Source of the DNA: Thermoplasmatota archaeon
GTDB lineage: Archaea; Thermoplasmatota; Penumbrarchaeia; Penumbrarchaeales; Penumbrarchaeaceae
Length of the DNA: 64,000 nt
Assembly (NCBI GenBank): GCA_029762535.1
Contig: JARVGK010000006.1
Location: 14,603-78,602 of the forward strand
Direction: 5' to 3'
In this document: positions 30,700 to 47,042 of the stretch, piece by piece
Numbering within the stretch: the first letter of the stretch is position 1
How the letters are laid out: the number at the start of each line of letters is the position of its first letter
The notes under the pieces: model-generated
The model's database searches: none
Seen by the model: only the letters and a program-made list of their open reading frames with translations
What the model was told of the DNA's origin: nothing
Position numbers and translations under genes: made by a program

Positions 30700-32940
30700 C
30701 TATATCGAGTCAATAATGGCATTGTAGGTCTGGCTAGGCCTCATGGCCCTGGATGCCATATCGTCATCCGGCTTGTAGTAGCCGCCTATGTCCACGGGAT
30801 GTCCTTGGGCCGCGTTAAGCTCCTGCAATATCTTATCCTCGTTCCCCTCGAGCTGTTCTGCCACGGGTGTGAATATACTCTTCAGCTCGGGATCGTCATT
30901 CTGATCCGCAAGCTCCCTTGCCCAGAACATGGTCAGGTAGAAATGGCTGCCCCTGTTGTCTATCTCGTTGACGTCTCTACCGGGCGACCTATTGCTCTCG
31001 AGGAACCGACCGTTGGCCCTATCCAGGGTTTGGGACAGAACTCTAGCCTTTTCGTTCCCGGTCCTGTTGGCCAGGTGCTCGAGCGATGCCGATATGGCAA
31101 GGAACTCACCCAAAGAGTCCCATCTGAGATGACCCTCATTGAGGAACTGCTCGACGTGTTTGGGAGCGGAACCTCCCGCACCCGTCTCGAATAGACCTCC
31201 GCCGTTCATCAACGGCACGATCGAGAGCATCTTTGCGCTTGTGCCCACCTCTAGTATCGGGAAAAGGTCCGTGAGATAGTCCCTAAGGACGTTCCCAGTC
31301 ACGGAAATAGTGTCCTTTCCCTCCTTTATGTACTGGCATGAGAACCTGGTGGCCTCGTCCGGAGACATTATCCTTATATCGAGCCCTGTCAGATCGTATT
31401 CTTTCAGATATTCGTTCACTTTTTTGATCAATTCCGCATCGTGGGGCCTTTTCTCGTCAAGCCAGAACACGACAGGGAGCTTCGTATCGATGGCCCTGCC
31501 CACAGCTAATTTCACCCAGTCCTTGATCGCCGGGTCCTTGACCTCGCACATCCGGAAGATATCGCCCTTCTCCACATCCTGCTCCATCAGGACCTCGCCA
31601 GAGGAGGCGACTAGCCTCATCTTTCCGTCGCCTGGTGCCGAGAAGGTCTTATCATGGGACCCGTACTCCTCGGCCTTCTGGGCCATGAGGCCGACGTTCT
31701 GGACAGACCCCATGGACCTGGGGTCGAAAGCACCGTTCTGCCTGCAGAAATCGACGACGGCCCTGTACACCCCGGAATAGCTGCTGTCAGGGATCACGAA
31801 CTTTGCCTCTTTAAGTGTCCCATCCTTTCCGTACATCCTACCACCTGCCCTGATGGCTGCGGGCATGGAGGCATCGATTATGACATCGCTCGGGACGTGG
31901 AGATTGGTTAGGCCCTTATCCGAGTTCACCATGGCCAGCTCTGGACCTTTGGCATACACCGCCTCGATGTCCTTCACTATCTCCAACCTCTTCTCCTCAG
32001 GTAGCGATGCGATCTTTGTGTATAGGTCTCCTAGTCCGTTGTTGGGGTTGATCCCAAGCTCCTTGAATATCACTTCATGCTTCTCGAATACGTCTGCGAA
32101 GAAAACGGAGACAACGTGTCCGAATATAATAGGGTCGGACACCTTCATCATCGTCGCCTTCAGATGGATAGAGAACAGTACCCCCATCTCTTTAGAGTGC
32201 TCTATCTGCCCCCTTATGAAATCCCTGAGGGATCTCACGCTCATGTGAGATGTATCGACGATCTCCAGGGCAGGCAGCTTCATATTATCCTTGAGGACCT
32301 TGACATCGCCGTTATCTCCAGTATATTCTATCCTTGCCTCCATGTCCGAGTCTATCGTCAAAGACCTCTCGTTCGACCTGAGATCCCCGGATGCCATGCT
32401 GGATACATGCGCCCTGTTATCGGGTTTCCATTCAGCCATGGAATGCGGGTGCTTCCTCGCATAGTTCTTTACGGATGCCGGGGCTCTCCTATCTGAATTC
32501 CCTTCTCTCAGGACGGGATTGACCGCGCTGCCTTTTATCTTATCATAGACGGTCTTTATCGTCCTTTCCTCATCGTTCTTGGGTTCATCTGGATAATCCG
32601 GCAGGGCGTACCCTTTGCCCTGCAGCTCCTTTATCGTCGCTTTTAGCTGTGGTATCGACGCGCTTATACACGGGAGCTTGATAACGTTCGCTTCGGGCAT
32701 TTTGACAAGCTTCCCCAGCTCTTCCAGGTCATCGTTGATCCTCTTGTCCTCGCTCAGATGGTCGGGGAACTTGGCTATCGTCCTGCCGGAGAGCGATATG
32801 TCCCTGGTCTCCACCTTCACTCCCGCGGCTCCCGTGAACGCTTTGATCACGGGAAGCAGCGAATAGGTCGCAAGCGCCGGGGCCTCATCGACCCTGGTGT
32901 ATATTATCCTGTTTCCATCAATTCTCTCTTCGTTCGACAT
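30700..32940 (-). CDS. icd: Monomeric NADP-dependent isocitrate dehydrogenase
   Basis: [64 protein letters not shown]. Confidence 0.96.
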
Positions 32941-34570
32941 CCTTTTCCTCCTTTTCAGCGAATACCGCATCATCGTAGTATCTTGGTTCGACGTTCCTTA
33001 CCACATCTATGATGGTCCCGTCCCTGTATTCGATCAAAGCAACGATCTCATCTCCCCAGTTAGGTTCGACCTTGGTCTGGGTTATCTCGTAGGCCTGCCT
33101 TTGAAGGTCCTCTATGGTCGTTATCTTCATGTCCCGGGGTATCTTGACCGAAGCGAGCTTTTCAAGAAGGTCGATCCTTCGCGGGTTCATCGCTATGCCC
33201 CGCTCTGTCACGACGACGTCAATGTTCTCTCCAGGGGTCACCACGGTGTTGACCCTGTCGACCACGACCGGATACCTTCCTCTGAAAAGAGGGACGGTCA
33301 ATATCGTCAGGCTAGCTCCGGCCGCGGTGTCCGAGTGCCCTCCGACGGGCTCGGCTATGATGCCGTTGGACATCGTGACCGAATTAACGTTATAATCCAG
33401 ATCCACCTCGGTCGCGCCCAGGACGACTATGTCCAGCTTGTTGACGGTACATCCTCTCCCATGTATGTTGGCGTATGCTCCGATAGGCAGGTCAACGTGG
33501 ATCTTGGGGTTCTCCTTCATGTTATGTATGGCGGCCACATCGAATGCCTGGCCCGTGATGAGTTTCTTCACTGTCCCATCGAGGAGCATCTCGACAAGGA
33601 ATTTCGTGGTCCCGCCCTGGGCCCAGGCGGCCTTCACCCCCTTTTCCTTCATCCTCTGATGAAGGAATTCCGTGAAAGCAAGCGAGATCCCCCCGGCCCC
33701 CGCTTGAAAGCTCATCCCCTCCTTGACGTAACCCAATAGGTCCGCGATCCTCATCGCGTCCTTGGCTATCTTGAGCCTGGTGGGCGAGTTGGTTATCCTG
33801 AGTTCGCCTGAGGCGATCTTGTTCGGATCCCCTATCTTGTCCACGACGACCACGTAATCTACCAGCTCCTGGCCGATGGACATGGGGAAGTTGGGATATT
33901 CCACAAGATGGTCCGTCACTGCGATAACATGGTCGGCGAAGTGAGCATCGGCATAGGCGAAATTGATCGTACCGCAAGCTGATGGGCCGTTGATCGCGTT
34001 GAGATTTCCCAGTTCATCTGCGGATGGTGCTCCTATGAAGGCCACATCCACGTGTATGTCACCGGCCTCGATCGCCCGGACCCTTCCCCCATGGGACCGG
34101 ATCCTCATAGGTTGGTTGAGATATCTTCCTGAGCTTACGAGCCTCCCGAACTCGCCCCTTGCGGAACCGCCTTCGACCTTTTTGATCGTCCCGTTCATTA
34201 TACATCGGATTATTGCCTCCTCCTGGCAGGGGAATGTGGATGAGGGGGCAAGGATGAGGTCCTTTATTCCCTTCCTCTCGATCTCCGCAAGGACCATGTT
34301 CATCACATGGTCCCCGTTCCTGAAATGGTGGTGGAAGGATATGGTCATGCCGTCCTTCAACCCGATCTTTTCCATTGCCTCGCCAAGTGTTTTCACAACC
34401 TCGTTCTCCTCGGAGGCAACATATCCGAGCTTGGGTCCGTACTTATGGTCCTTGACCGGCCTGTGGGCGAAGGGACCTTTGTAAGGTATCAGCTCCACAC
34501 CATCGATGGACCTCGGGACCTTTCTACCCAGGGAGTTCTCCACCCACTCCACATCCGAGATCTTCACCAT
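32918..34570 (-). CDS. citF: Citrate lyase alpha subunit (citrate CoA/ACP transferase)
   Basis: [49 protein letters not shown]. Confidence 0.94.
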
Positions 34571-35514
34571 CAGTCATCGCCTCCACCGCTTTTTTTTGCC
34601 TTCTGCTGCATCATCTCCGTCACTTCCTCGGGAGATGGTATGTCAAGGTCCGCCATCTTGGCGATCTCGAGCACCCTCTCGGCCTTGAGCACTATTGGTC
34701 TGTCTATCATCTTCGCCCCTAGGGCGACCGCTCCTGAGCCCTTCTTTTTCGCTTCCTCGATAGCCATCTTCACCCTAACGGCGTAGAGGATCTGCTCTGG
34801 GGTTGGATCGAAAACCGAATGTATTATCTCGACCTGGCTGGGATGGATGCATGCCTTTCCATCGTAACCCATTGTCTTTATCATCTCGGTCTCCTTTCTC
34901 AAACCTTCGGGGTCGCCGAAATCAGAATAGACAGTATCTATTGCTTGTATCCCGGCGGCCTTGGCCGCGAGAAGTACCATCGACCTAGCCGTGTTTATCG
35001 CCGTTCCTGTGCTGGACCTCTCACCCCCGAGATCCGCTGTAAGGTCCTCTCCGCCTATGGTAAGCGCCTCGAGTCTTTTGGAGCATCTTGCGATATCATA
35101 TGCGTTGATGATGCCCTTTGCCGTCTCCAATGTCGCGAACAGCTTTATCCTGCCTATTGGGAGGCCTTTCTTCTCCTCCAGGTCGGTCACGATATCATCC
35201 ACCTGTATGACGTCCTCCCTGGACTCGACCTTCGGAATGTATATGCCGTGCAGTTTCTCCGAGACTATCTGTTTGATGTCCCATTTCCCGTAGGGCGTGC
35301 TCATCGGATTGATCCTCACGGTGACCTCGGTCGCTGGGCCGAAATCGATGACCTTCAATGCCTCGGAGACGAGCATCCTGGCATCGGTCTTGTATTCGAG
35401 GGGAACGGAGTCCTCAAGGTCTAATGATATTACATCGGCGCCGTATAGACCTGCTGGGGGTATCATCTTCGGGTTGTTCCCTGGGACGTATAGCCTGGAA
35501 CGTCTGAGCCTCAT
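34570..35514 (-). CDS. citE: Citrate lyase beta subunit (citryl-CoA/ACP lyase)
   Basis: RRSRLYVPGNNP, DLEDSV, VRINP, GGED, GKACIHPSQ, MIDRPI. Confidence 0.94.
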   Translation of the reverse strand: MRLRRSRLYVPGNNPKMIPPAGLYGADVISLDLEDSVPLEYKTDARMLVSEALKVIDFGPATEVTVRINPMSTPYGKWDIKQIVSEKLHGIYIPKVESREDVIQVDDIVTDLEEKKGLPIGRIKLFATLETAKGIINAYDIARCSKRLEALTIGGEDLTADLGGERSSTGTAINTARSMVLLAAKAAGIQAIDTVYSDFGDPEGLRKETEMIKTMGYDGKACIHPSQVEIIHSVFDPTPEQILYAVRVKMAIEEAKKKGSGAVALGAKMIDRPIVLKAERVLEIAKMADLDIPSPEEVTEMMQQKAKKSGGGDD

Positions 35515-35795
35515 TCAAAAGCGCCCCCTTTTATCGCAGCGGCCTTGGTGCGCGCCACTATGGTGAAGTTCAGAGGGCTCTTACCAGAGCTCCAAACGAT
35601 GGCGTCCTCTATGCCCATACCGTGAAGCGTATTATCAAAGATCCGGAAGACCTCATCCCTGAAGACATCTCGGGATTTCCCCACTATTTCTATCTTTATA
35701 CCAGTCCCGGGCTCTGCGGGCGAGAGCTTTACTATGCAGTCCTCTCTCTCCTCGGTGCCGGCCTGGGCCTCCCTTAGCAGCTTTCTTGCGGCCAT
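35511..35795 (-). CDS. citD: Citrate lyase acyl-carrier protein (gamma), atypical
   Basis: 94 aa immediately upstream of citE. AQAGTEERED aligns to AxAGTLESxD; C-terminal TIVAR. Confidence 0.8.
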   Translation of the reverse strand: MAARKLLREAQAGTEEREDCIVKLSPAEPGTGIKIEIVGKSRDVFRDEVFRIFDNTLHGMGIEDAIVWSSGKSPLNFTIVARTKAAAIKGGAFE

Positions 35796-35807
35796 GACAT
35801 CACAACC

Positions 35808-37730
35808 TCATGAAAGCTGGCTCTTGGTATAATTGAGGGTTCCGCCGAGCCTGATGGTCTCCAGCTCCCTATCGGAGAGATCGTGGACGAGCTTTATCTT
35901 CGATCCCTTGTTCACTACCTCAATGATCAACTCACCCTTGAGATCGCCCACTTCCAGCTTCAGCTGGTCACCCTTCTCTATCTTGTCGTAATCGGAAGGG
36001 TCATTGAAGGTCAAGGGTGGGATCCCGAAGTTAATTAGGTTCGCCCTGTGTATCCTTGCGAAGGACTTGACGATAACAGCTTTGACACCAAGGTATTTCG
36101 GTGCCAGTGCTGCGTGCTCTCTGGATGATCCCTGACCGTAATTGTCCCCGCCGATGACGAAACCACCTTTCTTCTCGAGCGCCCTCTGCGGGAAGGTGTT
36201 GTCCACCTGACTGAAGACGAATTCGGATATGGCCGGGACGTTGGACCTGAGAGGCAGGATCTTCGCTCCTGCGGGCATGATGTGGTCCGTCGTTATGTTG
36301 TCTCCGACCTTTATAAGGACCTCCCCATTAAGCTCCGGCGATAGCGGTTGGAAGTCCGGCAGCGGTTTTATGTTAGGACCTCTCAGGATCTCCACCTTTC
36401 CCGCCTCATCAGGGGGCAGCGGATACACTATTAAGCTGTCGTCGTAGTCGTAAACCTCAGGTTCATCGATCATGTGCATTTGACCGATCTCCCTCGGGTC
36501 CGCGAACTCTCCCTTTATCGCCGTATAGGCAGCTATCTCTGGGGAGACCAGATAGACCTGGGCATCCTTTGTACCTGACCGGCCTTCGAAGTTGCGGTTG
36601 AATGTCCTCACTGATATCGCTCCCGTGTTCGGAGCGAGACCCATTCCAATGCATGGTCCACAGGCGTTCTCGAGCATCCTGAAACCCGCTCCGACGATAT
36701 CCGCCAGCGCGCCGTTCTTGGTTATCATCTTCACAATGGCCCTCGATCCGGGGGATACGGTAGCGGATACATCCTGATGGACCTTCTTCCCCTTCATTAT
36801 CTGGGCGACAACCATAAGGTCCCTGTATGATGAATTCGTGCAGGAACCCACGCATACCTGGTCCACTTTCATACCCAGAAGCTCTTTGAGGGTGACCACC
36901 GCCCCTGGGGAATGAGGTTTTGCCACCATCGGCTCCAAGGATGAGAGGTCTATCTCCATGACCGTATCGTAAGCTGCGTCATCGTCAGCTTTCAGTTCGA
37001 TCCATTGGTCCTCCCTGCCCTGTGCCTTGAGGAACTGCCTGGTGATCTCGTCCGAGGGAAATATGGAGGTCGTGGCTCCCGTTTCCGTCCCCATATTTGT
37101 GATCGTGGCCCTGTCCGGGACGCTCAAACTCTTAATGCCTGGGCCGAAATACTCAAGTATGAATCCCCTGCCTCCCTTTACATCGAGCCTTCTTAGGACC
37201 TCGAGTATCACGTCCTTGCCGGATACCCAATCAGGAAGCTCACCCTTCAGATGGACCCCCATGATCTTCGGGTACTTCAGACCGAAGGCCCCACCTCCCA
37301 TGGATACTGCGACATCGAGACCGCCTGCACCTATGGCGAGGGATGCCACGCCACCAGCAGTTGGTGTGTGGGAGTCCGATCCGATCAGGGTCTTTCCCGG
37401 CCTTGCGAAGCGTTCGAGCATTACCTGATGGCAGATCCCGTTGCCGGCCTTGGACAGCGTAATGCCATATCTCCTCGCGATGGATTGGAGATACCTGTGA
37501 TCGTCAGCGTTCTTGAAATCGCTCTGCAGCGTGTTATGGTCTATGAATGATACGCTCAATTCGGTCTTTACCCGGTCAAGGCCCATTGCCTCGAACTGAA
37601 GGTATGCCATGGTCCCAGTAGCATCTTGGGTGAGCGTCTGGTCCATCTTGATCCCTATATCGGATCCTTTCTCTTCATCTCCTGATACGATATGTTCTCT
37701 GATGATCTTCTCCGAAAGGGTTAGTCCCAT
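35808..37730 (-). CDS. acn: Aconitate hydratase
   Basis: QDATGT, GICHQ, GSDSHT, GSCTNSS, CGPCIG, FNRNF, TTDHI, GSSREHAA. Confidence 0.95.
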   Translation of the reverse strand: MGLTLSEKIIREHIVSGDEEKGSDIGIKMDQTLTQDATGTMAYLQFEAMGLDRVKTELSVSFIDHNTLQSDFKNADDHRYLQSIARRYGITLSKAGNGICHQVMLERFARPGKTLIGSDSHTPTAGGVASLAIGAGGLDVAVSMGGGAFGLKYPKIMGVHLKGELPDWVSGKDVILEVLRRLDVKGGRGFILEYFGPGIKSLSVPDRATITNMGTETGATTSIFPSDEITRQFLKAQGREDQWIELKADDDAAYDTVMEIDLSSLEPMVAKPHSPGAVVTLKELLGMKVDQVCVGSCTNSSYRDLMVVAQIMKGKKVHQDVSATVSPGSRAIVKMITKNGALADIVGAGFRMLENACGPCIGMGLAPNTGAISVRTFNRNFEGRSGTKDAQVYLVSPEIAAYTAIKGEFADPREIGQMHMIDEPEVYDYDDSLIVYPLPPDEAGKVEILRGPNIKPLPDFQPLSPELNGEVLIKVGDNITTDHIMPAGAKILPLRSNVPAISEFVFSQVDNTFPQRALEKKGGFVIGGDNYGQGSSREHAALAPKYLGVKAVIVKSFARIHRANLINFGIPPLTFNDPSDYDKIEKGDQLKLEVGDLKGELIIEVVNKGSKIKLVHDLSDRELETIRLGGTLNYTKSQLS

Positions 37731-37749
37731 TTTATTCCTCCTTATCACC

Positions 37750-39334: not shown

Positions 39335-40096
39335 TCAAACATCGAGCTCGATCCCGACCGGGCAATGATCGGAACCCGTTACTTCTTTTAATATGAACGC
39401 GTCATTCAACTTTGGCAGCAACACCTCATCTAAGAAGAAATAATCTATCCTCCAGCCGATGTCGCGCTCTCTGGCCCTGGTCTTGTAATCCCACCAGGAA
39501 TATGATACCTCTTCGGGATGCGTATGCCTGAAGGAATCAAAAAAACCCGAACCTATGACCTTGTCTATCCACTTCCTCTCGATGGGGAGGAATCCGGATA
39601 TCTTTTCGTTCTCCTTCGGCCTGGCCAGATCGATCTCGTTATGGGCAGTGTTCACATCGCCGCAGAACACCACTGCCCTACTCTTCCTGTATTCCAATAT
39701 CCTCTCCAGGAAAGCCTCGTAGAAATCCAACTTGAACCTCAATCTCTCATCGCCCTGTTTACCATTGGGGAAGTATGCATTGAAGAGTATGAATTTCTCG
39801 TGATGGGAGATCACAAGCCTTCCCTCCCGATCTAAACTCTCGATCCCCAATCCGTATTCCACCTCTAAGGGTTCGTCCCTGGACCATGTGCTGACGCCTG
39901 AATATCCCTTCTTTTCTGCGGATGTAAAATACTTTTCAAAACCTTCAAAGTCAAGTATCACCGGGTCCAGCTGCTCAGGACGGGCCTTGGTCTCTTGTAT
40001 GCAGAATATGTCCGGTCCGTCCTCTTTGATGAATTCGAGCATGCCCTTGGATGCCGCGGACCTGATCCCGTTGACGTTCCACGATAAGAGCCTGAT
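39335..40096 (-). CDS. xth: Exodeoxyribonuclease III / AP endonuclease
   Basis: SWNVNGIR, QETK, YFPNG, GDVNTAH, WRIDYF, SDHCP. ATC 40096 proposed as start (TTG at 40150 is the alternative). Confidence 0.93.
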   Translation of the reverse strand: MRLLSWNVNGIRSAASKGMLEFIKEDGPDIFCIQETKARPEQLDPVILDFEGFEKYFTSAEKKGYSGVSTWSRDEPLEVEYGLGIESLDREGRLVISHHEKFILFNAYFPNGKQGDERLRFKLDFYEAFLERILEYRKSRAVVFCGDVNTAHNEIDLARPKENEKISGFLPIERKWIDKVIGSGFFDSFRHTHPEEVSYSWWDYKTRARERDIGWRIDYFFLDEVLLPKLNDAFILKEVTGSDHCPVGIELDV

Positions 40097-40100
40097 CGGA

Positions 40101-41354
40101 TCACCTCTTCTTGCGGGCCTTGATCTCGACGCTCGGGCTGAGATCGACAACGCTCTGACCCCTTACCAGGTCGTCGGGTATGGGCTTCTCCTTCTCGGAT
40201 ACGAGATCTGGAAAGAGGGTGTTCAATTTCTTTGTTTCGAAGGGGCCCGAACGTAACAGCTTCGGAGGGTCCGTGCTCATATCGAGCACCGTATGGCCTA
40301 TGCCGTAATGGGTAGGCCCTCCATCAACGGCTATTGTCACGGTTTCCCCCAGTTGCTTGAGCGCCTCCTGCATTGTAGAGGGTGGAGGCTGCCCATGGAT
40401 GTTCGCAGAAGTGCCACATATCTCTATCCTCTCCATCACCGCTTTCATGAAGATGTTCTCACCGTCGGCTAGAGAGACGGTCTTCAGATTGGATGTAACA
40501 TAGTCGGGCACCCGTTCCTTCTTCTTTATGAATATAATGGATATCGGCCCGTCCAATTCGTTCTCCAGCAATGCCATGGTTCTGTCATCGATCTTCGCGT
40601 AATCCGTGAAACGGCTTCTCGGGACTATCATGGTCAGAGGCATGTCCTCTCCGCGTTTCTTCATCGCGTAGATCCTCTTGATGGCCTCCGGACGTTTTAT
40701 TGAGGCGAAAAGCCCATAGGTTGTATCGAAGGGACCTAAAAGGACCTCCCCTCGATTCAACATCTCGACCACGGTATCGACATATTTTTCCTTTGCCGGA
40801 AATATCTTCACCTTTTCAACCTCCTTCATTCTATCATTGTCCTTGAAAGGTCTGCTCATCTCCGATATACCGCCCTTCTCTATAAGAAGGGGAAATAGTC
40901 CGCCTTTTTCGATAATATCCATTATGAAACCTTGAAGCGGGGGCAGCGGCGAATCCCAACCCTTGGTGATATTATGTAACCTGTTATCCTCTATCAGGAC
41001 GCTGTCACCGTCAGAGCAAGCATCGGGAAGGTCGGGGTCCTCGTAAAGCGGTATGCCGAGATTTATCAGGTTCCTCTTCATTATAGGGGCTATTGACTTG
41101 GCAATGACCGCTTTTATTCCCAGGAACCTCATGGCGTTTGAGGCATGCTCTCTTGAGGACCCCTTGCCGAAGTCCTCACCGGCGACGATCACATCGCCTT
41201 CTCTGACCCCGGAGGCGAACCCAGGATAATCCTGCTCAAGGCAATGAAGGGAATAATCCTCCTGTGGAAGATGCAGATACCTCGTAGGGGCCAGCGCATC
41301 GGTATCGATATTATCCCCCAAAAGCCATATCCTTCCCTTTGCGATCTGTTTCAA
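40101..41354 (-). CDS. Fusion: LeuD/HacB isomerase small subunit + YrdC/Sua5(TsaC)-like domain
   Basis: aa 1-160 carry NIDTD, FGKGSSREHA, RNLINLG, GGL; aa ~176-390 carry PFDTTYGL, KKR, TSAN, DGG, LRSG. Confidence 0.85.
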   Translation of the reverse strand: MKQIAKGRIWLLGDNIDTDALAPTRYLHLPQEDYSLHCLEQDYPGFASGVREGDVIVAGEDFGKGSSREHASNAMRFLGIKAVIAKSIAPIMKRNLINLGIPLYEDPDLPDACSDGDSVLIEDNRLHNITKGWDSPLPPLQGFIMDIIEKGGLFPLLIEKGGISEMSRPFKDNDRMKEVEKVKIFPAKEKYVDTVVEMLNRGEVLLGPFDTTYGLFASIKRPEAIKRIYAMKKRGEDMPLTMIVPRSRFTDYAKIDDRTMALLENELDGPISIIFIKKKERVPDYVTSNLKTVSLADGENIFMKAVMERIEICGTSANIHGQPPPSTMQEALKQLGETVTIAVDGGPTHYGIGHTVLDMSTDPPKLLRSGPFETKKLNTLFPDLVSEKEKPIPDDLVRGQSVVDLSPSVEIKARKKR

Positions 41355-42580
41355 GGCACCACCTCTGAAGGATGGGCTATAACGCCTTTTAGCGCGGATG
41401 CCGCCGCGACGGCGACACCGCTTAGGTATATCTTGCTCGTGGGATCTCCCATTCTACCCTTGAAGTTTCGATTGGTGGTAGAGATCGCCACCTCTCCTGC
41501 GGGGAGGACTCCGAGGAAACCTCCTGCACAAGGGCCACAAGTAGGCATCGATATTATCCCCCCAGCATCCATAATGGTCTTAACGTATCCCGCCCTGGCC
41601 GCCCGGGTGTATACCGATCTCGACCCGGGAACGACGAGCATCTTGACCTCTGGGTGGATCTTCTTTCCCTTCAGGATGTCCGCCAGGACCCTGAGATCGT
41701 CCATTCTTCCATTTGTGCATGAGCCAATGAAGACCTGATCTATCCTCTTTCCGGTATGATTGTAGACATCGTCCACTCGATCCGGGGAACCTGGCAAGGA
41801 TATCTGAGGTCCTCTGTCGGTCACATCGATATGCTCGGTCTCCCAGTCCCAATCCTTCGATCCTGGCCCTTCATCATCGCTTTCGTTCGTCAGCGCTGAT
41901 ATACAATCTATCTCCGATGCCATATTGGTGAGTGTCATCCTGGAATCGTTTCCGATCCAATTCAATATATCCCCCTTCATCTCGAGCGTTCTGCCGTTCG
42001 CCCCGCCCGGTCCGAGGTGCTTGATCATCATAAGCGCCAGGTCCTTTCCCTCGCACCATACGTCCGGGGTACCCTCGAAGTATATGCCAAGGGGTTTAGG
42101 AACCTGCAGCCAGAACTCCCCGGAGGCCATGGCGACGGCCAGGTCCGTGGACCCTATGGCCGTGCAGAACGCACCCAAAGCACCTCCGGTCGTTATATGG
42201 GAATCGGCGCCTATGACGAGATCACCCTTCTTGACCCGATCCCCCTCGAAGAGATGCACGTGACATATGCCCTCGCCCCATCCGATCAGGTTCGCTATTC
42301 CGTGACGGGATGAGAATTCTGTCATGGCCCGGCAGCTTTCGGCTGATTCAAGGTCCTTCGGCGGAGTGAAATGGTCCAGATAAAGGTATATCTTCTTGGC
42401 CGCCCTTAGATACGGGACACCTTTGGAGTCCAACATCCTCATCGCAGGTGGGGTTGTAACATCATGTCCCATTATATGGTCCGGGAAGAAAACACCGTAA
42501 TCCCCCGGGACGAGATCCCCTTCGATCATATGATCTGAGAGTATGGACAACGCCAATGAACCAAGTACATCCCCGTTCAT
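41351..42580 (-). CDS. leuC: 3-isopropylmalate/homoaconitate isomerase large subunit (LeuC/HacA)
   Basis: GICH, GADSH, GSCTNGR, CGPCAGG, NRNFKGRMG. Confidence 0.88.
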   Translation of the reverse strand: MNGDVLGSLALSILSDHMIEGDLVPGDYGVFFPDHIMGHDVTTPPAMRMLDSKGVPYLRAAKKIYLYLDHFTPPKDLESAESCRAMTEFSSRHGIANLIGWGEGICHVHLFEGDRVKKGDLVIGADSHITTGGALGAFCTAIGSTDLAVAMASGEFWLQVPKPLGIYFEGTPDVWCEGKDLALMMIKHLGPGGANGRTLEMKGDILNWIGNDSRMTLTNMASEIDCISALTNESDDEGPGSKDWDWETEHIDVTDRGPQISLPGSPDRVDDVYNHTGKRIDQVFIGSCTNGRMDDLRVLADILKGKKIHPEVKMLVVPGSRSVYTRAARAGYVKTIMDAGGIISMPTCGPCAGGFLGVLPAGEVAISTTNRNFKGRMGDPTSKIYLSGVAVAAASALKGVIAHPSEVVP

Positions 42581-43758
42581 TGGCAGTGCCTCCTCAGGGA
42601 TTTCAATTCGAAACCGTTGGCCCTTGCGAATTGTATAAGATCGTCCTCAGTATCGAACGGGCCTTTGTATGTGGTCGTCTCTTTTACCAGGTCCGTGAGC
42701 TTTATCAATTTCTCATCGTCCAATGTCAGATTGTTCTTCTCGAGGAAATGTCTCAGTGCCGCCTTTCCGGTATGCTTTCCGATCACGAACTGACCTTTAT
42801 GCAGTCCCATCTCCTCCGGGTCGATGATCTCGTAGGTCAGGGGGTTCTTTAGTACGCCATGAACGTGTATACCGGACTCGTGCTTGAAAGCGTTCTCTCC
42901 TATGAGAGGCTGCCATATCTGTATGTTCAGACCCATCTCGTTCTTCACGGTGTCGCATAGGTTGCCAAGTCTGTCCATCTTCAAATTGGTTTCCACGCCC
43001 AGATGCCTGATGTTGAACTTCAATACGACCGCTATCTGTTCTAGAGGGCAGTTCCCGGCCCTCTCTCCGATCCCGGTCACCGTGCAGTCTATCTGTCCCG
43101 CACCGGCCCTGACCGCCGATAAGGTGTTGGCAGTTGCCAATCCTAGATCGTTGTGGCAGTGTATGCCCACCGGAACCCTGTCCCCAACACACGAGCGGAC
43201 ATGCTGGATCATGAGAGAAATATGCTCGGGCATTGCACATCCGACCGTATCCGCGAGATTGACCACATCGGCTCCAGCTCTGACCCCTTCCTTCATAATG
43301 TTCCCCAGAAAGAACAGGTCGGACCTTGTCGCGTCCTCCGAGCTGAACTGAATGGAATCGAACTTACCCTTGGCGTACCTTATCGCGTTGATCATCTTGT
43401 TTATGACATCCAGGGGTTCCATCCTGAGTTTGTCCCTCATGTGTATCGGAGAGGTGGATACCCAGAGGTGGAGCCTTGACCTTCCCGCTCTGGAAAGGAC
43501 CTCCTGGCACATGTCGATCTCGGTCGTTATCGGCCTGCATAGAACAGCTACTGTGGAGTTCTCCACCTCCTTGGAGATCATCCTTATCGCATTTCTCTCT
43601 GATCCTCCGTTGGCCGGAAAACCTGCCTCAAGTACGTCCACTCCGGCCGAGTCCAAAGCACGGGCTATGTTCACCTTCTTTTCTGGGGTGAGGTGTATCC
43701 CTGGCGCCTGCTCACCATCCCTCAGAGTGGTATCGAATACCCTTAAATTCCTGACCAC
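42577..43758 (-). CDS. LeuA/homocitrate-synthase family DRE-TIM enzyme without regulatory domain
   Basis: DTTLRDGEQ, EDATR, DTVG, HCHNDLGLA, GERAGN, HESGIH, GKHTG; 393 aa. Confidence 0.9.
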   Translation of the reverse strand: MVRNLRVFDTTLRDGEQAPGIHLTPEKKVNIARALDSAGVDVLEAGFPANGGSERNAIRMISKEVENSTVAVLCRPITTEIDMCQEVLSRAGRSRLHLWVSTSPIHMRDKLRMEPLDVINKMINAIRYAKGKFDSIQFSSEDATRSDLFFLGNIMKEGVRAGADVVNLADTVGCAMPEHISLMIQHVRSCVGDRVPVGIHCHNDLGLATANTLSAVRAGAGQIDCTVTGIGERAGNCPLEQIAVVLKFNIRHLGVETNLKMDRLGNLCDTVKNEMGLNIQIWQPLIGENAFKHESGIHVHGVLKNPLTYEIIDPEEMGLHKGQFVIGKHTGKAALRHFLEKNNLTLDDEKLIKLTDLVKETTTYKGPFDTEDDLIQFARANGFELKSLRRHCQ

Positions 43759-43935: not shown

Positions 43936-44613
43936 ATGATAACGGAATATCAATTGGAAGAGGCCCTTCTCAACGGGTTCGAATATCCGGTAGCGCTCGT
44001 GGTCGAAGTGACGAAGCAGGGGATAGTCCTTTCGAAGATGCGCTATCTGAAAGCCGTTGGGGATGTGGTCAACGAAACGGTCAGATGTCCGTCGATGGTC
44101 ATGTATTGTCACATGGGCAAATTCATCGATCCTCATCTCATTGGACAGAGGACTGGACCTATGGGTATCGACCTCCTATACCTTATGGAGCTGAACAAGG
44201 GTCTCTTCAACGAGTCCGTCGATGCGATAAGGAGGGGGAGGTCGATGGTCAATACCAACAATCCAAGCACGAAGAACATTGCATCGGCCCTATTGGAGAA
44301 GATCAACACCAGGGACAGGATCAACTTCAACAGATTGACAGCTCAGGAACAAGGGCTGATACTCGAACCGTATGTCCATTACCTACTGAAAAGAGCCGGT
44401 TCCGGCAAGAGGAAATTGTTCCAGAACGTGGAACTGGTCGAAAGGGGCGGTCTGATAAAATGCCGTTCAGGCGATGAGATAATAAGGTTCAGGCCCACTC
44501 CCGCTCCGATGATGGAGCTTGATATACTCCTTGTTACCAATATGAACACGATGTCATCCATACTCAAGGACCTCGAGATGATGGGTTTCAAGAAGGAAAC
44601 CCTACAGTTCTAG
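43936..44613 (+). CDS. Hypothetical protein
   Basis: 225-aa ORF with GGAGGT RBS; no motif recognised. Confidence 0.7.
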   Translation: MITEYQLEEALLNGFEYPVALVVEVTKQGIVLSKMRYLKAVGDVVNETVRCPSMVMYCHMGKFIDPHLIGQRTGPMGIDLLYLMELNKGLFNESVDAIRRGRSMVNTNNPSTKNIASALLEKINTRDRINFNRLTAQEQGLILEPYVHYLLKRAGSGKRKLFQNVELVERGGLIKCRSGDEIIRFRPTPAPMMELDILLVTNMNTMSSILKDLEMMGFKKETLQF

Positions 44614-47042
44614 GTGTCCATATCGTTGCTGTAAAGCTTGGTGAACTTCCCGTCCTTCTTCATGTAGACCAGTCTCTTGTCCTTTATCGCCTTGATGTTA
44701 TAATTGACGGTGGATGTGCTGATCTCCATCTCCTCGGATAGCTCCTTCTGGCTGATCCCGGGCATGTTGATTATTCTCTCTAGCATCTTTCTTTGGAGAG
44801 GGGTTAGGTCCATCGGGCTCTCATCTATCTTGAACCCTGCCGGATAGAACCTTCTATAAAGGCCCTCCCTATGGCTCCTTACCAGGTTCTCCTTCTCCAG
44901 TGTGTAGAGATGGTGGGCTAGAGTACCGTTCTTAAGGTTGAGGTTCACCAGTATGGAGCGGAAGTGCTCACCTGGATGGTTCTGGACATATACGTATATC
45001 CTCCTTCTGAGCTTGTTGCCCAATAGATGTTCGGGTTTAAGTTTGCTGTACAACGGTATCATCATCGTAAAGAAGGAATACCTGAATGTATCGGAGGATA
45101 CCACCACCACGGCCAGTCCGGCGAATATGATGCTTAGGGCTATTCCAGATGCCATTATTCCAGGTCGTATGCCATCCATACCGACGGGTTCGGACGGGAC
45201 CTTAAGGGAGTCCACGTGTATCTCCTCAGACAGCTCGTTGTCGAGTATGGAGTCCTCCTTTACCCCGAATAGCAGCACCACGGCGCTTATGGACCTTGTC
45301 GATGGCCTTGCGGTCCAGTTGAACCAGAAGCTTGACACCTCGCCGCTCTGTAGTTTGGCGTCCATCCTTCCTATCTCGACCCTGGAATTGCTGAAGGTCA
45401 CCTCGTAAAGCACGATCATGAAGTTATCGACATCTATTGGACCGGTATTGGCCAATGTGACGTTCATCGGCACCGACTCGCCCTCCTGCAGGATCCTGTT
45501 TGGGATATCCAAGGATAGAATGGCGATGTTCGGAAGTTCCCTTATGAGCACATCACCGATGATGGAATCCACCATTACCCAGGAAGTGTCGTCAGCCGAG
45601 GGGGTAAGCAGTTCCAGGTCCATTTGGAAAGAGGCGGGCTGCAGGTTCTCCTTCAGTTCCAGTGAAATGATGACGGTTTGGGTCATACCGGCAGCTATGA
45701 CGAAATTCGAAGGAGTGATGTTCAACCTGTAGCATGATGGTATCCGTGATCCCTCGACCATGGCCATCTGTGATACGTATCCGGAGTTCTCTACTATAAG
45801 AAGCAGCTTGACCTCCTCATCCTTGTCGAAGGGGCCGCCTTCGACCGATCGTATGCTCATGTTCGTCAGGGGCTTGATCCGGACAAGTGTCTCGGAATCG
45901 ATCACCAGACCGTTGACGTTCATTCCACCGATGACCATGCTGAAGAAACCATTGGCTCCCAATGGCGGTGTGACCTTTACCTTGAACTCCATTCTTTCGT
46001 TGGCGGGGATCAGCTGAGGGGTGTCTGGGTTGAAAATGGAGACCCAACCCATCTGAGGCGAACCGTCCAGGACGGTCAGCCGCGGGGTGTAAACAGCGGA
46101 TTCCTGTCCGGTATTAATTGCATCGAAATCCAGAAGGAAGTCCCTGCCTTCCCTGACCTCGAGATATGGAACTCTCGCCTTTATCGTTACCGCTGAGGAT
46201 TGGATCACGTGAAAATGCACGGTCACGGATCCAGAACGTGTTCCGGTATCGAAAAGATCGGCGCCGTACGATCCTGAATAGATAGTAACGCTCAAGAGCG
46301 AGCCGACCACTGCTTTGGGGGATACGCCCACCAGAACCCTTATGAGCGCGTCCGTTCCGAATTTTCCGTGATCTAGCTGGTATTGGACGTATTCACCCTC
46401 CGGAAAGGAGATCTCCCATTCGCTCCTGTGCTCGGCGATCATAATCTCATACGAGTCCTTCATTGACCCCTTGTTCCTCAGGTCGAGGTCGAAGTAGAGT
46501 TTCTGCCCGGGATAGACGTCCATATTCTTCTCGGGGACGAATTCAGGCAGGATCATCAATTCATGGTCGAGGACCGAATCGATCCGGATGATGAGGATGA
46601 TGAAGCTCTTATCCCCTGAAGGGGATCCCATCCCTTCAACGCGTATCATGTGGTCCGCGTTCGGATCGAGACCTGGATATGGCAATACGTCCGGAACCTC
46701 TACGACCACTTTCGCATCCATCGTACCGTTGGCCGGTACTTCCACCGAGCTTGTCACATATGCGAGATATCCGGTGGGGATGTCCGTAAGTTTGAGCATC
46801 ACCGTCTGGTTCTCGGGGGAGAAGTTCTGCACCCAGATGGTGAAGGTGGTTATCTCCCCAGGGATCACCCTGTGCACTGGAAATCGATTCGGCGATGAAG
46901 TGGTCGGATCCCCGGGATCGGCATCTAACCTGATGCTACCCTCGTTGAACTCGCCCGAAGCGCTGGTCGTTCCGGAAATTAGGATGACCTGAACGAGCAA
47001 CAGGGTCAGTAACATCGCCGAACACTTGAGACGTTGGCCCAT
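44610..47042 (-). CDS. Membrane-anchored protein: extracellular Ig/CARDB-like domains, TM, C-terminal double winged HTH
   Basis: Signal peptide, repeated NxG Ig strands, TM, then RRRIYVYVQNHPGEHF..GTLAHHL and PGISQKELS..STVNYNI. Confidence 0.82.
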   Translation of the reverse strand: MGQRLKCSAMLLTLLLVQVILISGTTSASGEFNEGSIRLDADPGDPTTSSPNRFPVHRVIPGEITTFTIWVQNFSPENQTVMLKLTDIPTGYLAYVTSSVEVPANGTMDAKVVVEVPDVLPYPGLDPNADHMIRVEGMGSPSGDKSFIILIIRIDSVLDHELMILPEFVPEKNMDVYPGQKLYFDLDLRNKGSMKDSYEIMIAEHRSEWEISFPEGEYVQYQLDHGKFGTDALIRVLVGVSPKAVVGSLLSVTIYSGSYGADLFDTGTRSGSVTVHFHVIQSSAVTIKARVPYLEVREGRDFLLDFDAINTGQESAVYTPRLTVLDGSPQMGWVSIFNPDTPQLIPANERMEFKVKVTPPLGANGFFSMVIGGMNVNGLVIDSETLVRIKPLTNMSIRSVEGGPFDKDEEVKLLLIVENSGYVSQMAMVEGSRIPSCYRLNITPSNFVIAAGMTQTVIISLELKENLQPASFQMDLELLTPSADDTSWVMVDSIIGDVLIRELPNIAILSLDIPNRILQEGESVPMNVTLANTGPIDVDNFMIVLYEVTFSNSRVEIGRMDAKLQSGEVSSFWFNWTARPSTRSISAVVLLFGVKEDSILDNELSEEIHVDSLKVPSEPVGMDGIRPGIMASGIALSIIFAGLAVVVVSSDTFRYSFFTMMIPLYSKLKPEHLLGNKLRRRIYVYVQNHPGEHFRSILVNLNLKNGTLAHHLYTLEKENLVRSHREGLYRRFYPAGFKIDESPMDLTPLQRKMLERIINMPGISQKELSEEMEISTSTVNYNIKAIKDKRLVYMKKDGKFTKLYSNDMDT

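What the first reader, a model, noticed from the sequence alone, without database searches (positions are those of the whole stretch)
40101..43758. LeuA-LeuC-LeuD::YrdC operon with an altered carbamoyl-adenylate synthase domain and no LeuB
Seen: one ORF joins LeuD to a YrdC/TsaC domain. ATP-binding KxR and SAN and LRxG are kept, but PTETVYGL is PFDTTYGL, the TVAVR Arg is lost (TVSLA) and STIVD is HTVLD; no isopropylmalate dehydrogenase is adjacent. Known: YrdC makes threonylcarbamoyl-AMP for t6A, and the Arg and Ser mentioned contribute to the Thr pocket. Inference: the domain may adenylate a different substrate, possibly one derived from the synthase/isomerase, pointing to an undescribed metabolite or tRNA-modification pathway. 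Internal Mets at 40859 and 40829 mean a recent stop-codon loss is also possible.
Basis: partly seen in the sequence, partly recalled or inferred. Interest (0 to 1): 0.8.

Follow-up and report, generated by a model that had tools for sequence, protein, structure and literature searches.

The report
LeuD fused to altered YrdC enzyme
One family of uncultured sediment archaea has permanently fused the small subunit of a leucine-type isomerase to a diverged copy of the tRNA-modification enzyme TsaC. Bacterial relatives of that copy sit next to the same kind of isomerase, so this looks like an undescribed ATP-using enzyme class acting on organic acids, not on tRNA.

Summary
Three translationally coupled minus-strand genes encode a LeuA/HCS-like synthase, a LeuC-like large subunit, and one 417-aa protein joining a LeuD-like small subunit to a YrdC/TsaC-fold domain. 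No PF00180 dehydrogenase is adjacent.

- **The fusion is old.** About 30 protein clusters (58-90% identity) carry it. It occurs in 18 of 24 genomes of one Thermoplasmatota family and in no other of 251 genomes of the phylum. The YrdC half is the better conserved half (79% vs 59% pairwise identity).
- **It is not the cell's TsaC.** Of the 18 genomes with the fusion, 17 also show a canonical short TsaC.
- **The active site is partly changed.** The domain keeps the ATP tetrad (KxR/SxN) and the bicarbonate Arg. It has lost two universal threonine-binding residues, invariantly (Arg121→Ala, Ser181→His).
- **Its nearest relatives share the change and the context.** They are Arg121-less YrdC-like proteins. 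In Gammaproteobacteria, Actinomycetota and two metagenome contigs they lie directly behind leuC-leuD or beside an HCS-like synthase. In Streptomyces they lie inside CitD/E/X/G clusters.

The best reading is a neofunctionalised adenylate-forming domain acting on a hydroxy-dicarboxylic acid handled by the synthase and isomerase. The substrate is inferred, not shown.

Earlier notes of this scan report similar LeuA/LeuDC/YrdC modules in other genomes.

The parts
42577..43758 (-). LeuA/homocitrate-synthase-like synthase (P0003, 393 aa). It has the HMGL-like and HCS_D2 domains and no LeuA regulatory domain.
   Evidence: Pfam gives 267 and 89.5 bits. It scores below every NCBIfam equivalog cut-off; the best is IPMS at 426 bits against a cut-off of 532. 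The best solved relative is N. meningitidis IPMS, E 2e-81. It has Gln where the lysine-cluster HCS on C43 has Arg.
41351..42580 (-). LeuC/HacA-like large subunit (P0002, 409 aa), with 4-bp overlaps to both neighbouring genes.
   Evidence: NF001614 scores 417 bits (cut-off 385) and TIGR01343 scores 395 bits (cut-off 385.7). The Fe-S Cys motifs GSCTNGR and CGPCAG are visible.
40875..41354 (-). LeuD/HacB-like small-subunit domain of the fusion protein P0001 (residues 1-160). The start codon is TTG.
   Evidence: TIGR02087 scores 128.1 bits (cut-off 108.95). The GSSREHA motif is invariant. The best solved relative is the M. jannaschii IPM/citramalate isomerase small subunit 3VBA, E 1.7e-33.
40791..40874 (-). 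Inter-domain linker (residues 161-188).
   Evidence: pLDDT is below 50 at residues 166-187. Length is conserved and mean pairwise identity is 63% in the family.
40227..40790 (-). YrdC/TsaC-fold domain (residues 189-376). The KRSN tetrad and the Arg195 equivalent are kept. The Arg121 equivalent is Ala296 and the Ser181 equivalent is His354.
   Evidence: Residue roles come from PMC6004061. Mean pairwise identity in the family is 79%.
40101..40226 (-). C-terminal tail (residues 377-417 plus the stop codon). Its beginning aligns with the start of the Sua5 inter-domain linker.
   Evidence: The alignment to Sua5 chains 9d3h and 2eqa runs through LFPDLV. The model is disordered from residue 388. No Sua5_C domain was found in the genome.
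39335..40150 (-). Exodeoxyribonuclease III (Xth). It is conserved directly downstream in relatives and is probably unrelated in function. The true start is probably downstream of the TTG at 40150.
   Evidence: TIGR00633 scores 290.7 bits. An Exo_endo_phos gene sits 4 nt after the fusion gene in L020, L021 and L022.
43936..44613 (+). Divergently transcribed 225-aa ORF with no family match. Its position beside the synthase gene is conserved.
   Evidence: No Pfam hit. A 223-226-aa gene without Pfam hits holds the same position in L020, L021, L022 and L031.

Best explanation
The locus encodes a three-gene module maintained by selection: an HCS/LeuA-like synthase, a LeuC-like large subunit, and LeuD fused to a YrdC-fold domain.

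The YrdC domain is a neofunctionalised paralogue of the TC-AMP synthase TsaC/Sua5. It is still built to bind ATP and to form an acyl- or carbamoyl-adenylate with release of PPi. This is an inference from the kept residues:
- the KxR/SxN tetrad;
- the Arg that holds the carboxylate or bicarbonate;
- the Thr35 equivalent.

The pocket that holds L-threonine is rebuilt. The carboxylate-binding Arg121 is replaced by Ala, Ser181 by His, and His67 by Ile.

The domain belongs to a group of Arg121-less YrdC-like proteins whose genes repeatedly accompany LeuCD-type hydro-lyases or citrate-lyase-type ACP/lyase genes. It is therefore most likely to activate, by adenylation, a carboxyl group of the hydroxy-dicarboxylic acid that the synthase makes and the LeuCD-type enzyme isomerises. 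That acid would be an alkylmalate such as 3-methylmalate or 3-isopropylmalate. Fusion to LeuD would put the adenylating site next to the isomerase.

The acceptor of the activated acid is unknown. It could be CoA, an ACP thiol, an amine or an intramolecular hydroxyl.

Shown:
- the architecture, its conservation and its lineage restriction;
- the residue pattern;
- the co-occurring canonical TsaC;
- the recurring gene neighbourhood.

Inferred:
- catalytic competence;
- the identity of the substrate;
- the direction of the pathway.
For: **1. The fusion is real and old.**
- About 30 clusters of 398-425 aa carry PF00694 plus PF01300.
- It is in 18 of 24 genomes of one GTDB family, counting G000 and not counting a fragment in a nineteenth, G022.
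- It is in none of the 13 other genomes of the class. Outside that family, none of 251 phylum genomes has a match above 35% identity.

**2. The YrdC half is under stronger constraint.** Mean pairwise identity is 79% for the YrdC domain and 59% for the LeuD domain.

**3. A canonical TsaC exists alongside it.**
- The own genome has a 201-aa copy with PTDTLYGL, KGR, TVAVR and TSAN. It scores 134.5 bits on TIGR00057.
- Seventeen of the 18 genomes with the fusion show a standalone copy as well. The exception, G016, is 69% complete.

**4. Residue mapping onto P. abyssi Sua5.**
- Kept: K56, R58, S143, N145, T35, R195.
- Changed invariantly: R121 to A, S181 to H, H67 to I, N62 to M, T33 to F.
- PMC6004061 names T35, H67, R121, S181 and R195 as the Thr-binding residues.

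**5. Nearest relatives.**
- In an HMM search of 1.84 billion representatives, the closest non-family hits lack R121. Of the 150 best hits, 123 are canonical R/S.
- The fusion groups with non-canonical proteins that nearly all lack R121. SH-aLRT was 97 for a 31-row clade, and 91 for a 25-row clade after some pocket columns were dropped.

**6. Context of these relatives.**
- HCS-like, LeuC, LeuD, YrdC1, YrdC2 and LeuB-like genes in Pseudoalteromonas, Dasania and a metagenome contig.
- LeuC-LeuD-YrdC with a 4-bp overlap in Mycobacteriales and Pseudonocardiales MAGs. The same gene order, with a short gap, is on contig L047.
- leuC-leuD-yrdC-leuB-ilvC on a 33% GC contig.
- CitD-CitE-CitX-YrdC::SDR-CitG in three Streptomyces genomes; L032 has the same order with YrdC and a short-chain dehydrogenase called as separate genes.
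- A position between two 2-hydroxyacyl-CoA-dehydratase subunits, near a PrpD gene.
- All 16 context-linked sequences keep KRSN and lack R121.
Against: - No biochemical data exist for any member of this group.
- The domain still passes NCBI's TC-AMP-synthase equivalog cut-off (126.8 vs 123.2 bits). TsaC enzymes are known to be promiscuous; that point rests on my own knowledge.
- Support for a single Arg121-less clade is moderate. It rests on quick trees only, and the careful search did not finish. In the second tree the P0143 and P0144 subgroups fell outside that clade.
- The sequences in the tree were chosen by similarity to the fusion itself.
- One genome of the family at 90% completeness (G030) lacks the fusion.
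- In L043 the YrdC-like gene sits in what looks like an ordinary leu/ilv operon. A role inside normal leucine synthesis, rather than a new pathway, therefore cannot be excluded.
- Three of the seven contexts looked up from representative proteins were uninformative.
- The inter-domain geometry is not predicted with confidence (pTM 0.49).
Confidence: 0.55

Rival explanations
1. The domain keeps the full TsaC chemistry (amine plus CO2 gives a carbamate, which is then adenylated) but uses a different amino acid. That amino acid could come from the 2-oxoacid made by the LeuA/LeuCD-type module. The product would be an X-carbamoyl-AMP used for a variant tRNA A37 modification or for a ureido or carbamate metabolite.
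For: All residues that hold ATP and bicarbonate are kept, including R195 and S143. The domain passes the TIGR00057 cut-off. R121 is replaced by small or hydrophobic residues across the group, which would suit a different side chain or a substrate lacking the alpha-carboxylate.
Against: - No aminotransferase and no Kae1-like transferase is linked to the cluster.
- R121 and S181 are among the residues that hydrogen-bond the bound threonine. That R121 holds the alpha-carboxylate shared by all amino acids is my inference. If so, losing it argues against any alpha-amino acid.
- The CitD/E/X/G and 2-hydroxyacyl-CoA-dehydratase contexts of relatives concern organic acids and thioesters, not amino acids.
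Confidence: 0.2
2. The domain is non-catalytic. It would be a ligand-sensing or RNA-binding YrdC fold that regulates or localises the isomerase. For example, it could replace the missing LeuA regulatory domain.
For: P0003 lacks the LeuA C-terminal regulatory domain. YciO, another TsaC paralogue, is thought to act on RNA rather than make TC-AMP.
Against: The complete KRSN tetrad, R195 and T35 are invariant in the family and across the whole Arg121-less group. A pure sensor would not need that. YciO, the non-TsaC paralogue, is defined by loss of the tetrad.
Confidence: 0.08
3. It is a second, redundant TC-AMP synthase, and the fusion to LeuD is a neutral accident of adjacent genes.
For: It scores above the TIGR00057 cut-off. 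Its best solved relatives are genuine Sua5 enzymes (9d3h at E 4.8e-30, 2eqa at E 3.1e-24).
Against: - Two Thr-binding residues, conserved in 123 of the 150 closest representatives, are invariantly replaced.
- A canonical TsaC is present in 22 of the 24 genomes of the family.
- The literature argues that two isofunctional copies are rarely kept.
- Unfused relatives sit behind leuD in distant bacteria that must have their own TsaC; that last point is an inference.
Confidence: 0.07
4. The domain is the missing acyl-ACP ligase (a CitC substitute) for the citrate lyase CitDEF, which lies 4.5 kb away in this window. The link to LeuD would then be secondary.
For: The window holds aconitase-citD-citE-citF. 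citC, citX and citG were not found in the 93%-complete genome. In Streptomyces an Arg121-less YrdC::SDR sits between citX and citG in clusters where no CitF or CitC homologue was seen among the annotated genes.
Against: In relatives the citE/aconitase genes and the fusion lie on different contigs. G030 has citE but no fusion. This idea does not explain the fusion partner or the translational coupling to the synthase and LeuC genes.
Confidence: 0.05

Closest known systems
TsaC/Sua5 L-threonylcarbamoyl-AMP synthase (P. abyssi Sua5 6F87, S. tokodaii Sua5 2EQA/4E1B, E. coli TsaC 1HRU)
   Same: Same YrdC fold family (PF01300). Same KxR/SxN ATP tetrad. Same Arg that holds bicarbonate or the carbamoyl group. 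The start of the tail aligns with the Sua5 linker.
   Different: - R121 is Ala, S181 is His and H67 is Ile, in every family member.
- There is no Sua5_C domain, and I saw no PGM or HY linker motif.
- It is fused to LeuD.
- It co-exists with a canonical TsaC.
- Its gene neighbourhood is organic-acid metabolism, not translation.
YciO (E. coli, 1KK9/1K7J), the known non-TsaC paralogue
   Same: A TsaC paralogue that co-exists with the real TsaC and probably has another function.
   Different: YciO lacks the KRSN tetrad, whereas this domain keeps it. The match to YciO is weak (E 1.9e-9, against 4.8e-30 to Sua5). YciO's context is RNase AM/yciV, not leuCD.
YrdC-like domains of HypF and TobZ/NodU carbamoyltransferases
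   Same: Precedent for a YrdC-fold domain that adenylates something other than N-carboxy-threonine (carbamate gives carbamoyl-AMP) and that is fused to its partner enzyme.
   Different: Those domains are fused to a Kae1-like transferase and use carbamoyl phosphate. Here the partner is a LeuD swivel domain. The HypF model scores 14 bits against a cut-off of 466. The genome has a separate HypF-length protein (790-aa frame).
Archaeal isopropylmalate/citramalate isomerase and homoaconitase small subunits (M. jannaschii MJ1277 3VBA, MJ1271 2PKP; P. horikoshii 1V7L)
   Same: The N-terminal 160 residues are a complete LeuD/HacB domain with GSSREHA, encoded after a LeuC-like gene.
   Different: It carries a 230-residue C-terminal extension. 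The substrate-loop region reads YLH-L here, is one residue shorter than in 3VBA, and varies within the family. It lacks the Arg of the homoaconitase YLRT loop (loop roles are from my own knowledge).
Cystargolide/belactosin-type pathways, which take 3-isopropylmalate from LeuA/LeuCD homologues and activate its carboxyl group
   Same: Precedent that a LeuA/LeuCD-type module without a downstream LeuB step can feed an alkylmalate into carboxyl activation. The paper was found (PMC10776993). The mechanism is from my own knowledge.
   Different: Activation there is by methylation (CysG), not by a YrdC-fold enzyme. No such product is known from archaea. This is a resemblance of logic only and was not tested.

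Membership tests
TsaC/Sua5 TC-AMP synthase | YrdC fold (PF01300) and a score above the TIGR00057 equivalog cut-off | tested here: met
   PF01300 scores 119 bits. TIGR00057 scores 124.7-126.8 bits against a cut-off of 123.2, so the pass is marginal.
TsaC/Sua5 TC-AMP synthase | KxR/SxN (KRSN) ATP-binding tetrad | tested here: met
   K232, R234, S316 and N318 are invariant in 27 sequences. The tetrad is defined in PMC6004061 and PMC4615747.
TsaC/Sua5 TC-AMP synthase | Conserved L-threonine-binding residues (Pa-Sua5 T35, H67, R121, S181, R195) | tested here: not met
   T35 and R195 are kept. R121 is A296, S181 is H354 and H67 is I243, all invariant. R121 together with S181 is present in 123 of the 150 nearest representatives and in the genome's own TsaC.
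TsaC/Sua5 TC-AMP synthase | It is the genome's (usually only) copy serving t6A synthesis | tested here: not met
   A separate canonical 201-aa TsaC lies on contig C28. A standalone copy was found in 22 of the 24 genomes of the family.
TsaC/Sua5 TC-AMP synthase | TC-AMP formation and complementation of tsaC or sua5 loss | not testable with these tools
   This needs an enzyme assay and genetics.
Sua5 (two-domain form) | C-terminal SUA5 domain (PF03481) and a linker with PGM and HY motifs | tested here: not met
   No PF03481 match anywhere in the genome. I saw no PGM or HY motif in the 40-residue tail of the aligned family.
YciO | Loss of the KRSN tetrad | tested here: not met
   The tetrad is intact. 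The criterion comes from PMC4615747.
HypF/TobZ YrdC-like domain | Fusion to a Kae1/TsaD-like transferase domain | tested here: not met
   Only the Aconitase_C and PF01300 domains are present. TIGR00143 scores 14.1 bits against a cut-off of 466.
LeuD/HacB small subunit (archaeal type) | TIGR02087 above its cut-off, the GSSREHA motif, and an adjacent LeuC-like partner with Fe-S cysteines | tested here: met
   TIGR02087 scores 128.1 bits against 108.95. The motif is invariant. P0002 is adjacent with a 4-bp overlap and carries the Cys motifs.
LeuD/HacB small subunit (archaeal type) | Substrate-specificity loop (YLVY for IPM/citramalate, YLRT for homoaconitate) | tested here: inconclusive
   The loop reads YLH-L. 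It varies in the family (H/N/T/S/M/G) and is one residue shorter than in 3VBA. It has no Arg.
2-isopropylmalate / citramalate / homocitrate synthase | HMGL-like TIM barrel plus HCS_D2, and a score above a specific equivalog cut-off | tested here: inconclusive
   Both domains are present. The protein scores below every NCBIfam cut-off, subfamily models included. It has Gln where the lysine-cluster HCS has Arg, so a homocitrate-synthase role is unlikely.

The most novel reading that the evidence does not exclude
Arg121-less YrdC-fold proteins are an unrecognised class of carboxylate-adenylating ligases for hydroxy-dicarboxylic acids. They would form acyl-AMP and then possibly a thioester, amide or lactone. 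In these archaea the enzyme is welded to an isopropylmalate-isomerase-type hydro-lyase, so that an alkylmalate is activated as it is made. This would open a pathway branch that is neither leucine synthesis nor t6A synthesis.
Probability: 0.3. Interest if true: 0.8.

Novelty: new variant of a known kind. Interest (0 to 1): 0.62.

Why it matters
**Annotation.** The YrdC/TsaC fold is one of the few universal protein families, and it is currently credited with only two chemistries: TC-AMP and carbamoyl-AMP. A conserved subgroup that keeps the ATP machinery but lacks the threonine-binding Arg would add a third function. It would also give the first functional handle on many proteins now auto-annotated as 'L-threonylcarbamoyladenylate synthase' or 'LeuD'. 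This fusion passes NCBI's equivalog cut-off, so it is prone to mis-annotation.

**Orphan modules.** The finding suggests what the orphan LeuA/LeuCD modules without a dehydrogenase, seen repeatedly in uncultured lineages, might be doing.

**Testability.** The hypothesis can be tested in culturable carriers such as Pseudoalteromonas sp. S16_S37, Dasania phycosphaerae and Streptomyces huiliensis.

Tried and rejected
- **Recent stop-codon loss or assembly artefact.** Rejected. The fusion is conserved across seven genera.
- **Naturally split genes in relatives.** The only split case (P0036/L031) is a 1-nt frameshift in a contig whose name gives 3.2x coverage.
- **Sole TsaC.** Rejected.
- **YciO or HypF membership.** Rejected.
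- **This cluster as the lysine homocitrate pathway.** Rejected. A separate HCS-LysX-LysY-LysZ-LysJ-LysK cluster lies on contig C43, and P0003 lacks the Arg seen there.
- **Ordinary Leu/Ile biosynthesis.** Not settled. IlvD was not found in this genome, nor in two 97%-complete relatives that have the fusion. However, 2-oxoisovalerate could come from valine breakdown; VOR is reported for the class.
- **P0003 as Re-citrate synthase.** No canonical citrate synthase was found, only an ACL-like 618-aa frame. I had no way to test this idea.
- **Unfused orthologues in the class or phylum.** None found. The outgroup LeuCD pairs are only 38-42% identical and lack a synthase or YrdC neighbour.
- **A second, independent LeuD::YrdC fusion in bacteria.** Not found. 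The only longer hit was a canonical TsaC::CoaE fusion. That is weak evidence, because the search is word-limited.
- **The search for related loci with the broad alignment A3.** It failed for lack of a conserved stretch.
- **The 'careful' tree.** It did not finish in two 300-s runs, so only quick trees are reported. My list of columns to drop was off by one, so Ala296 stayed in while His354 was removed.
- **AlphaFold model.** Both domains are confident. The linker, the tail and the domain orientation are not (pTM 0.49), so no structural inference about channelling was drawn.
- **Steps not run.** No fold search and no complex prediction were run.
- **P0037.** This LeuD domain sits at the C-terminus of a 428-aa protein and has no YrdC part.

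Full report
**What is there.** Three minus-strand ORFs overlap each other by 4 bp (42577-43758, 41351-42580, 40101-41354).
- The first is a 393-aa HMGL-like/HCS_D2 synthase without the LeuA regulatory domain. It scores below every NCBIfam cut-off.
- The second is a 409-aa LeuC/HacA-type large subunit.
- The third, P0001 (417 aa), is LeuD-like at residues 1-155 (TIGR02087, 128.1 bits against 108.95). It is YrdC/TsaC-like at residues 189-376 (PF01300, 119 bits; TIGR00057, 124.7 bits against 123.2).
- An exonuclease III gene follows directly.
- No PF00180 dehydrogenase is in the cluster. The genome's only one is on contig C9, next to the gene for lysyl-tRNA synthetase.

**The fusion is old and under selection.**
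- A protein search found about 30 clusters of 398-425 aa, all with PF00694 plus PF01300, at 58-90% identity. After them the scores fall sharply to single-domain hits.
- In 27 aligned members the linker length, the deviant residues and a 40-residue tail are conserved.
- Mean pairwise identity is 79% in the YrdC domain and 59% in the LeuD domain.
- Whole-genome searches place the fusion in 18 of 24 genomes of one GTDB family, with a fragment in a nineteenth. It is in none of the 13 other genomes of the class.
- In 251 genomes of the phylum, the best match outside that family is 35% identical or less.
- One member comes from 'Thermoplasmatales archaeon ex4484_6'. The lineage is therefore probably class EX4484-6, also called Ca. 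Penumbrarchaeia. PMC12220078 describes these as protein-degrading sediment archaea with a reverse TCA cycle. This assignment is an inference.
- The synthase-LeuC-fusion-xth order, and a divergent 225-aa ORF of no known family, recur in relatives about 60% identical.
- The only 'split' homologue is a 1-nt frameshift in a contig whose name gives 3.2x coverage.

**It is not the housekeeping TsaC.**
- The genome has three PF01300 regions: the fusion, a 790-aa HypF-length frame, and a standalone 201-aa protein.
- The standalone protein has the canonical motifs and scores 134.5 bits on TIGR00057.
- No Sua5_C domain exists in the genome.
- In the family, a standalone short copy was found in 22 of 24 genomes. 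That includes 17 of the 18 with the fusion; the exception is 69% complete.

**The active site is half kept and half rebuilt.** PMC6004061 states that in P. abyssi Sua5 L-threonine is hydrogen-bonded by T35, H67, R121, S181 and R195. It also states that K56/R58/S143/N145 form the ATP tetrad, and that R195 and the S143 backbone hold bicarbonate. I mapped the fusion onto that numbering through the alignments to solved Sua5 chains.
- Kept: T35, K56, R58, S143, N145, R195.
- Changed: R121 to A296, S181 to H354, H67 to I243, N62 to M238, T33 to F209. All are invariant in the family.
- H67 and N62 also differ in short TsaC proteins, including the genome's own copy.
- R121 and S181 do not: 123 of the 150 closest representatives, and the own TsaC, have both.
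- YciO, the known non-TsaC paralogue, is defined by losing the tetrad. This domain therefore is not YciO.

**Relatives and their neighbourhoods.** An HMM of the YrdC domain was searched against 1.84 billion representative proteins. The whole fusion family fell into one 50% cluster. The next hits were enriched for proteins that keep KRSN but lack R121.
- Quick maximum-likelihood trees put the fusion in a clade of non-canonical proteins that nearly all lack R121. SH-aLRT was 97 for 31 rows, and 91 for 25 rows after some pocket columns were dropped. Its nearest neighbour is an FHA-YrdC protein (95).
- This support is moderate. The careful search did not finish, and taxon sampling was driven by similarity to the query.

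Gene contexts of these relatives are the strongest evidence:
- In Pseudoalteromonas sp. S16_S37 the order is MFS, nitroreductase, HCS-like, TENA/haem-oxygenase-like, amidohydrolase_2, LeuC, LeuD, YrdC1, YrdC2, LeuB-like. Dasania phycosphaerae and a metagenome contig share the core from the HCS-like gene to YrdC2.
- In Mycobacteriales and Pseudonocardiales MAGs the order is LeuC-LeuD-YrdC, with the last two genes overlapping by 4 bp. A 61% GC metagenome contig has the same order with a short gap.
- On a 33% GC contig the order is leuC-leuD-yrdC-leuB-asnC-ilvC. Its LeuC fragment is 53% identical to P0002.
- On another contig an HCS-like gene lies 0.7 kb upstream of the YrdC-like gene.
- In three Streptomyces genomes the cluster is CitD-like ACP, CitE-like lyase, CitX, YrdC::SDR and CitG. 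A metagenome contig (L032) has the same order with YrdC and a short-chain dehydrogenase called as separate genes. No CitF or CitC homologue was seen among the genes annotated there.
- One member lies between the two subunits of a 2-hydroxyacyl-CoA dehydratase, near a PrpD gene.
- Three contexts were uninformative.
- All 16 context-linked sequences keep KRSN, and none has R121.

Earlier notes of this scan describe LeuA-like/LeuD-LeuC/YrdC modules in Patescibacteria and two other genomes. I used them as a lead and did not verify those genomes.

**Interpretation.**
- LeuCD-type hydro-lyases, citrate-lyase components, 2-hydroxyacyl-CoA dehydratases and PrpD all act on hydroxy-di- or tricarboxylic acids or their thioesters.
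- TsaC chemistry ends with a carboxylate (the carbamate of N-carboxy-threonine) attacking the alpha-phosphate of ATP.
- A substrate that already has a carboxylate in that position would need neither the amine nor CO2.
- R121 is replaced by Ala, Val, Cys, Thr or Phe in most members and by Asn in two YrdC1 copies. This mostly suits a pocket for an alkyl substituent rather than an alpha-carboxylate. That point is an inference.
- I therefore read the domain as an adenylate-forming enzyme for the alkylmalate-type acid handled by the synthase and isomerase, with fusion to LeuD serving proximity.
- In the Streptomyces clusters, where I saw neither CitC nor CitF, a ligase role of this kind would fill the gap. 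That, too, is an inference.

**What the module makes is open.**
- P0003 has Gln where the homocitrate synthase of the lysine cluster on contig C43 has Arg.
- The LeuD loop has no Arg.
- A neutral 2-oxoacid (pyruvate, 2-oxobutyrate or 2-oxoisovalerate) is therefore more likely than 2-oxoglutarate.
- IlvD was not found in this genome, nor in two 97%-complete relatives that have the fusion. This speaks against standard Leu/Ile synthesis. It does not exclude leucine synthesis from valine-derived 2-oxoisovalerate.

**Comparison with known systems.** The domain works like a TsaC/Sua5 in its ATP half. It fails the membership test on threonine-binding residues and on being the t6A copy. It is not YciO and not a HypF/TobZ domain. 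I found no paper on a LeuD-YrdC fusion or on an Arg121-less subgroup in the held library. I class it as a new variant of a known kind.

**Confidence.**
- About 0.8 that this is a neofunctionalised paralogue functionally coupled to LeuCD.
- About 0.55 for the full statement, including action on a pathway-derived acid.
- About 0.3 for carboxylate adenylation of an alkylmalate specifically.

Noticed in passing
window 30700-37748 (-): An operon of aconitase (646 aa), CitD-like ACP (94 aa), CitE, CitF and a monomeric isocitrate dehydrogenase (757 aa). citC, citX and citG were not found in the 93%-complete genome, so it is unclear how this citrate lyase gets its prosthetic group and is activated.
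   Followed up: partly
G000 contig C5:994-1593 and relatives: No canonical citrate synthase was found. The only PF00285 match is the C-terminal part of a ~618-aa frame typical of the ATP-citrate lyase alpha subunit. In relatives it often lies a few kb from the aconitase/citE genes.
   Followed up: partly
L029 (G000:C43:4000-17000): A complete LysW-type alpha-aminoadipate lysine cluster: homocitrate synthase, LysX-like ATP-grasp, LysY, LysZ, LysJ and LysK-like M20 peptidase. The genome also has two further LeuCD pairs (C15, C17) in uninformative contexts.
   Followed up: partly
window 43936-44613 (+) and 44610-47042 (-): A 225-aa ORF with no family match sits divergent from the synthase gene. 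The same arrangement holds in relatives (L020, L021, L022, L031). Next to it in this window and in L021/L022 is an ~810-aa protein with HTH and CARDB domains; L020 has a shorter HTH protein there.
   Followed up: no
L036, L037, L040 (Streptomyces), L032: A cluster of an unknown ~390-420-aa protein, CitD-like ACP, CitE-like lyase, CitX, a YrdC fused to a short-chain dehydrogenase, and CitG. No CitF or CitC homologue was seen among the annotated genes. This looks like an uncharacterised ACP-dependent lyase system in which the YrdC-like part may load the ACP.
   Followed up: partly
L035 (Pseudoalteromonas sp. S16_S37), L041 (Dasania phycosphaerae), L033: A cluster that looks biosynthetic. In L035: MFS, nitroreductase, HCS-like, TENA/haem-oxygenase-like, amidohydrolase_2, LeuC, LeuD, two tandem YrdC-like genes, LeuB-like and an adenosine-deaminase-like gene. 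A citrate-synthase-like gene lies at the edge of L033 and L041, and its best match in L035 is a short frame at that locus's edge. L041 and L033 share the core from the HCS-like gene to YrdC2.
   Followed up: partly
P0151 context (Logan SRR26090898, no DNA held): An Arg121-less YrdC-like gene lies between two HGD-D (2-hydroxyacyl-CoA dehydratase) subunits. A radical-SAM/SPASM gene, a BcrAD/BadFG-type activator and a PrpD-like dehydratase are nearby.
   Followed up: no
P0136 / L044: A 331-aa FHA-domain::YrdC-like fusion is the closest non-family relative of the window's YrdC domain. It shares the GPFD motif and has Thr at the R121 position. It sits next to a cNMP-binding protein on a 2.6-kb contig.
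   Followed up: no
P0287: A canonical TsaC (R121 and S181 present) fused to dephospho-CoA kinase CoaE, 401 aa.
   Followed up: no
P0037: A 428-aa protein whose C-terminal 150 residues are a LeuD domain 46% identical to the window's. It is preceded by about 270 residues in which the precomputed Pfam list shows no domain. This is another LeuD fusion with an unknown partner.
   Followed up: no
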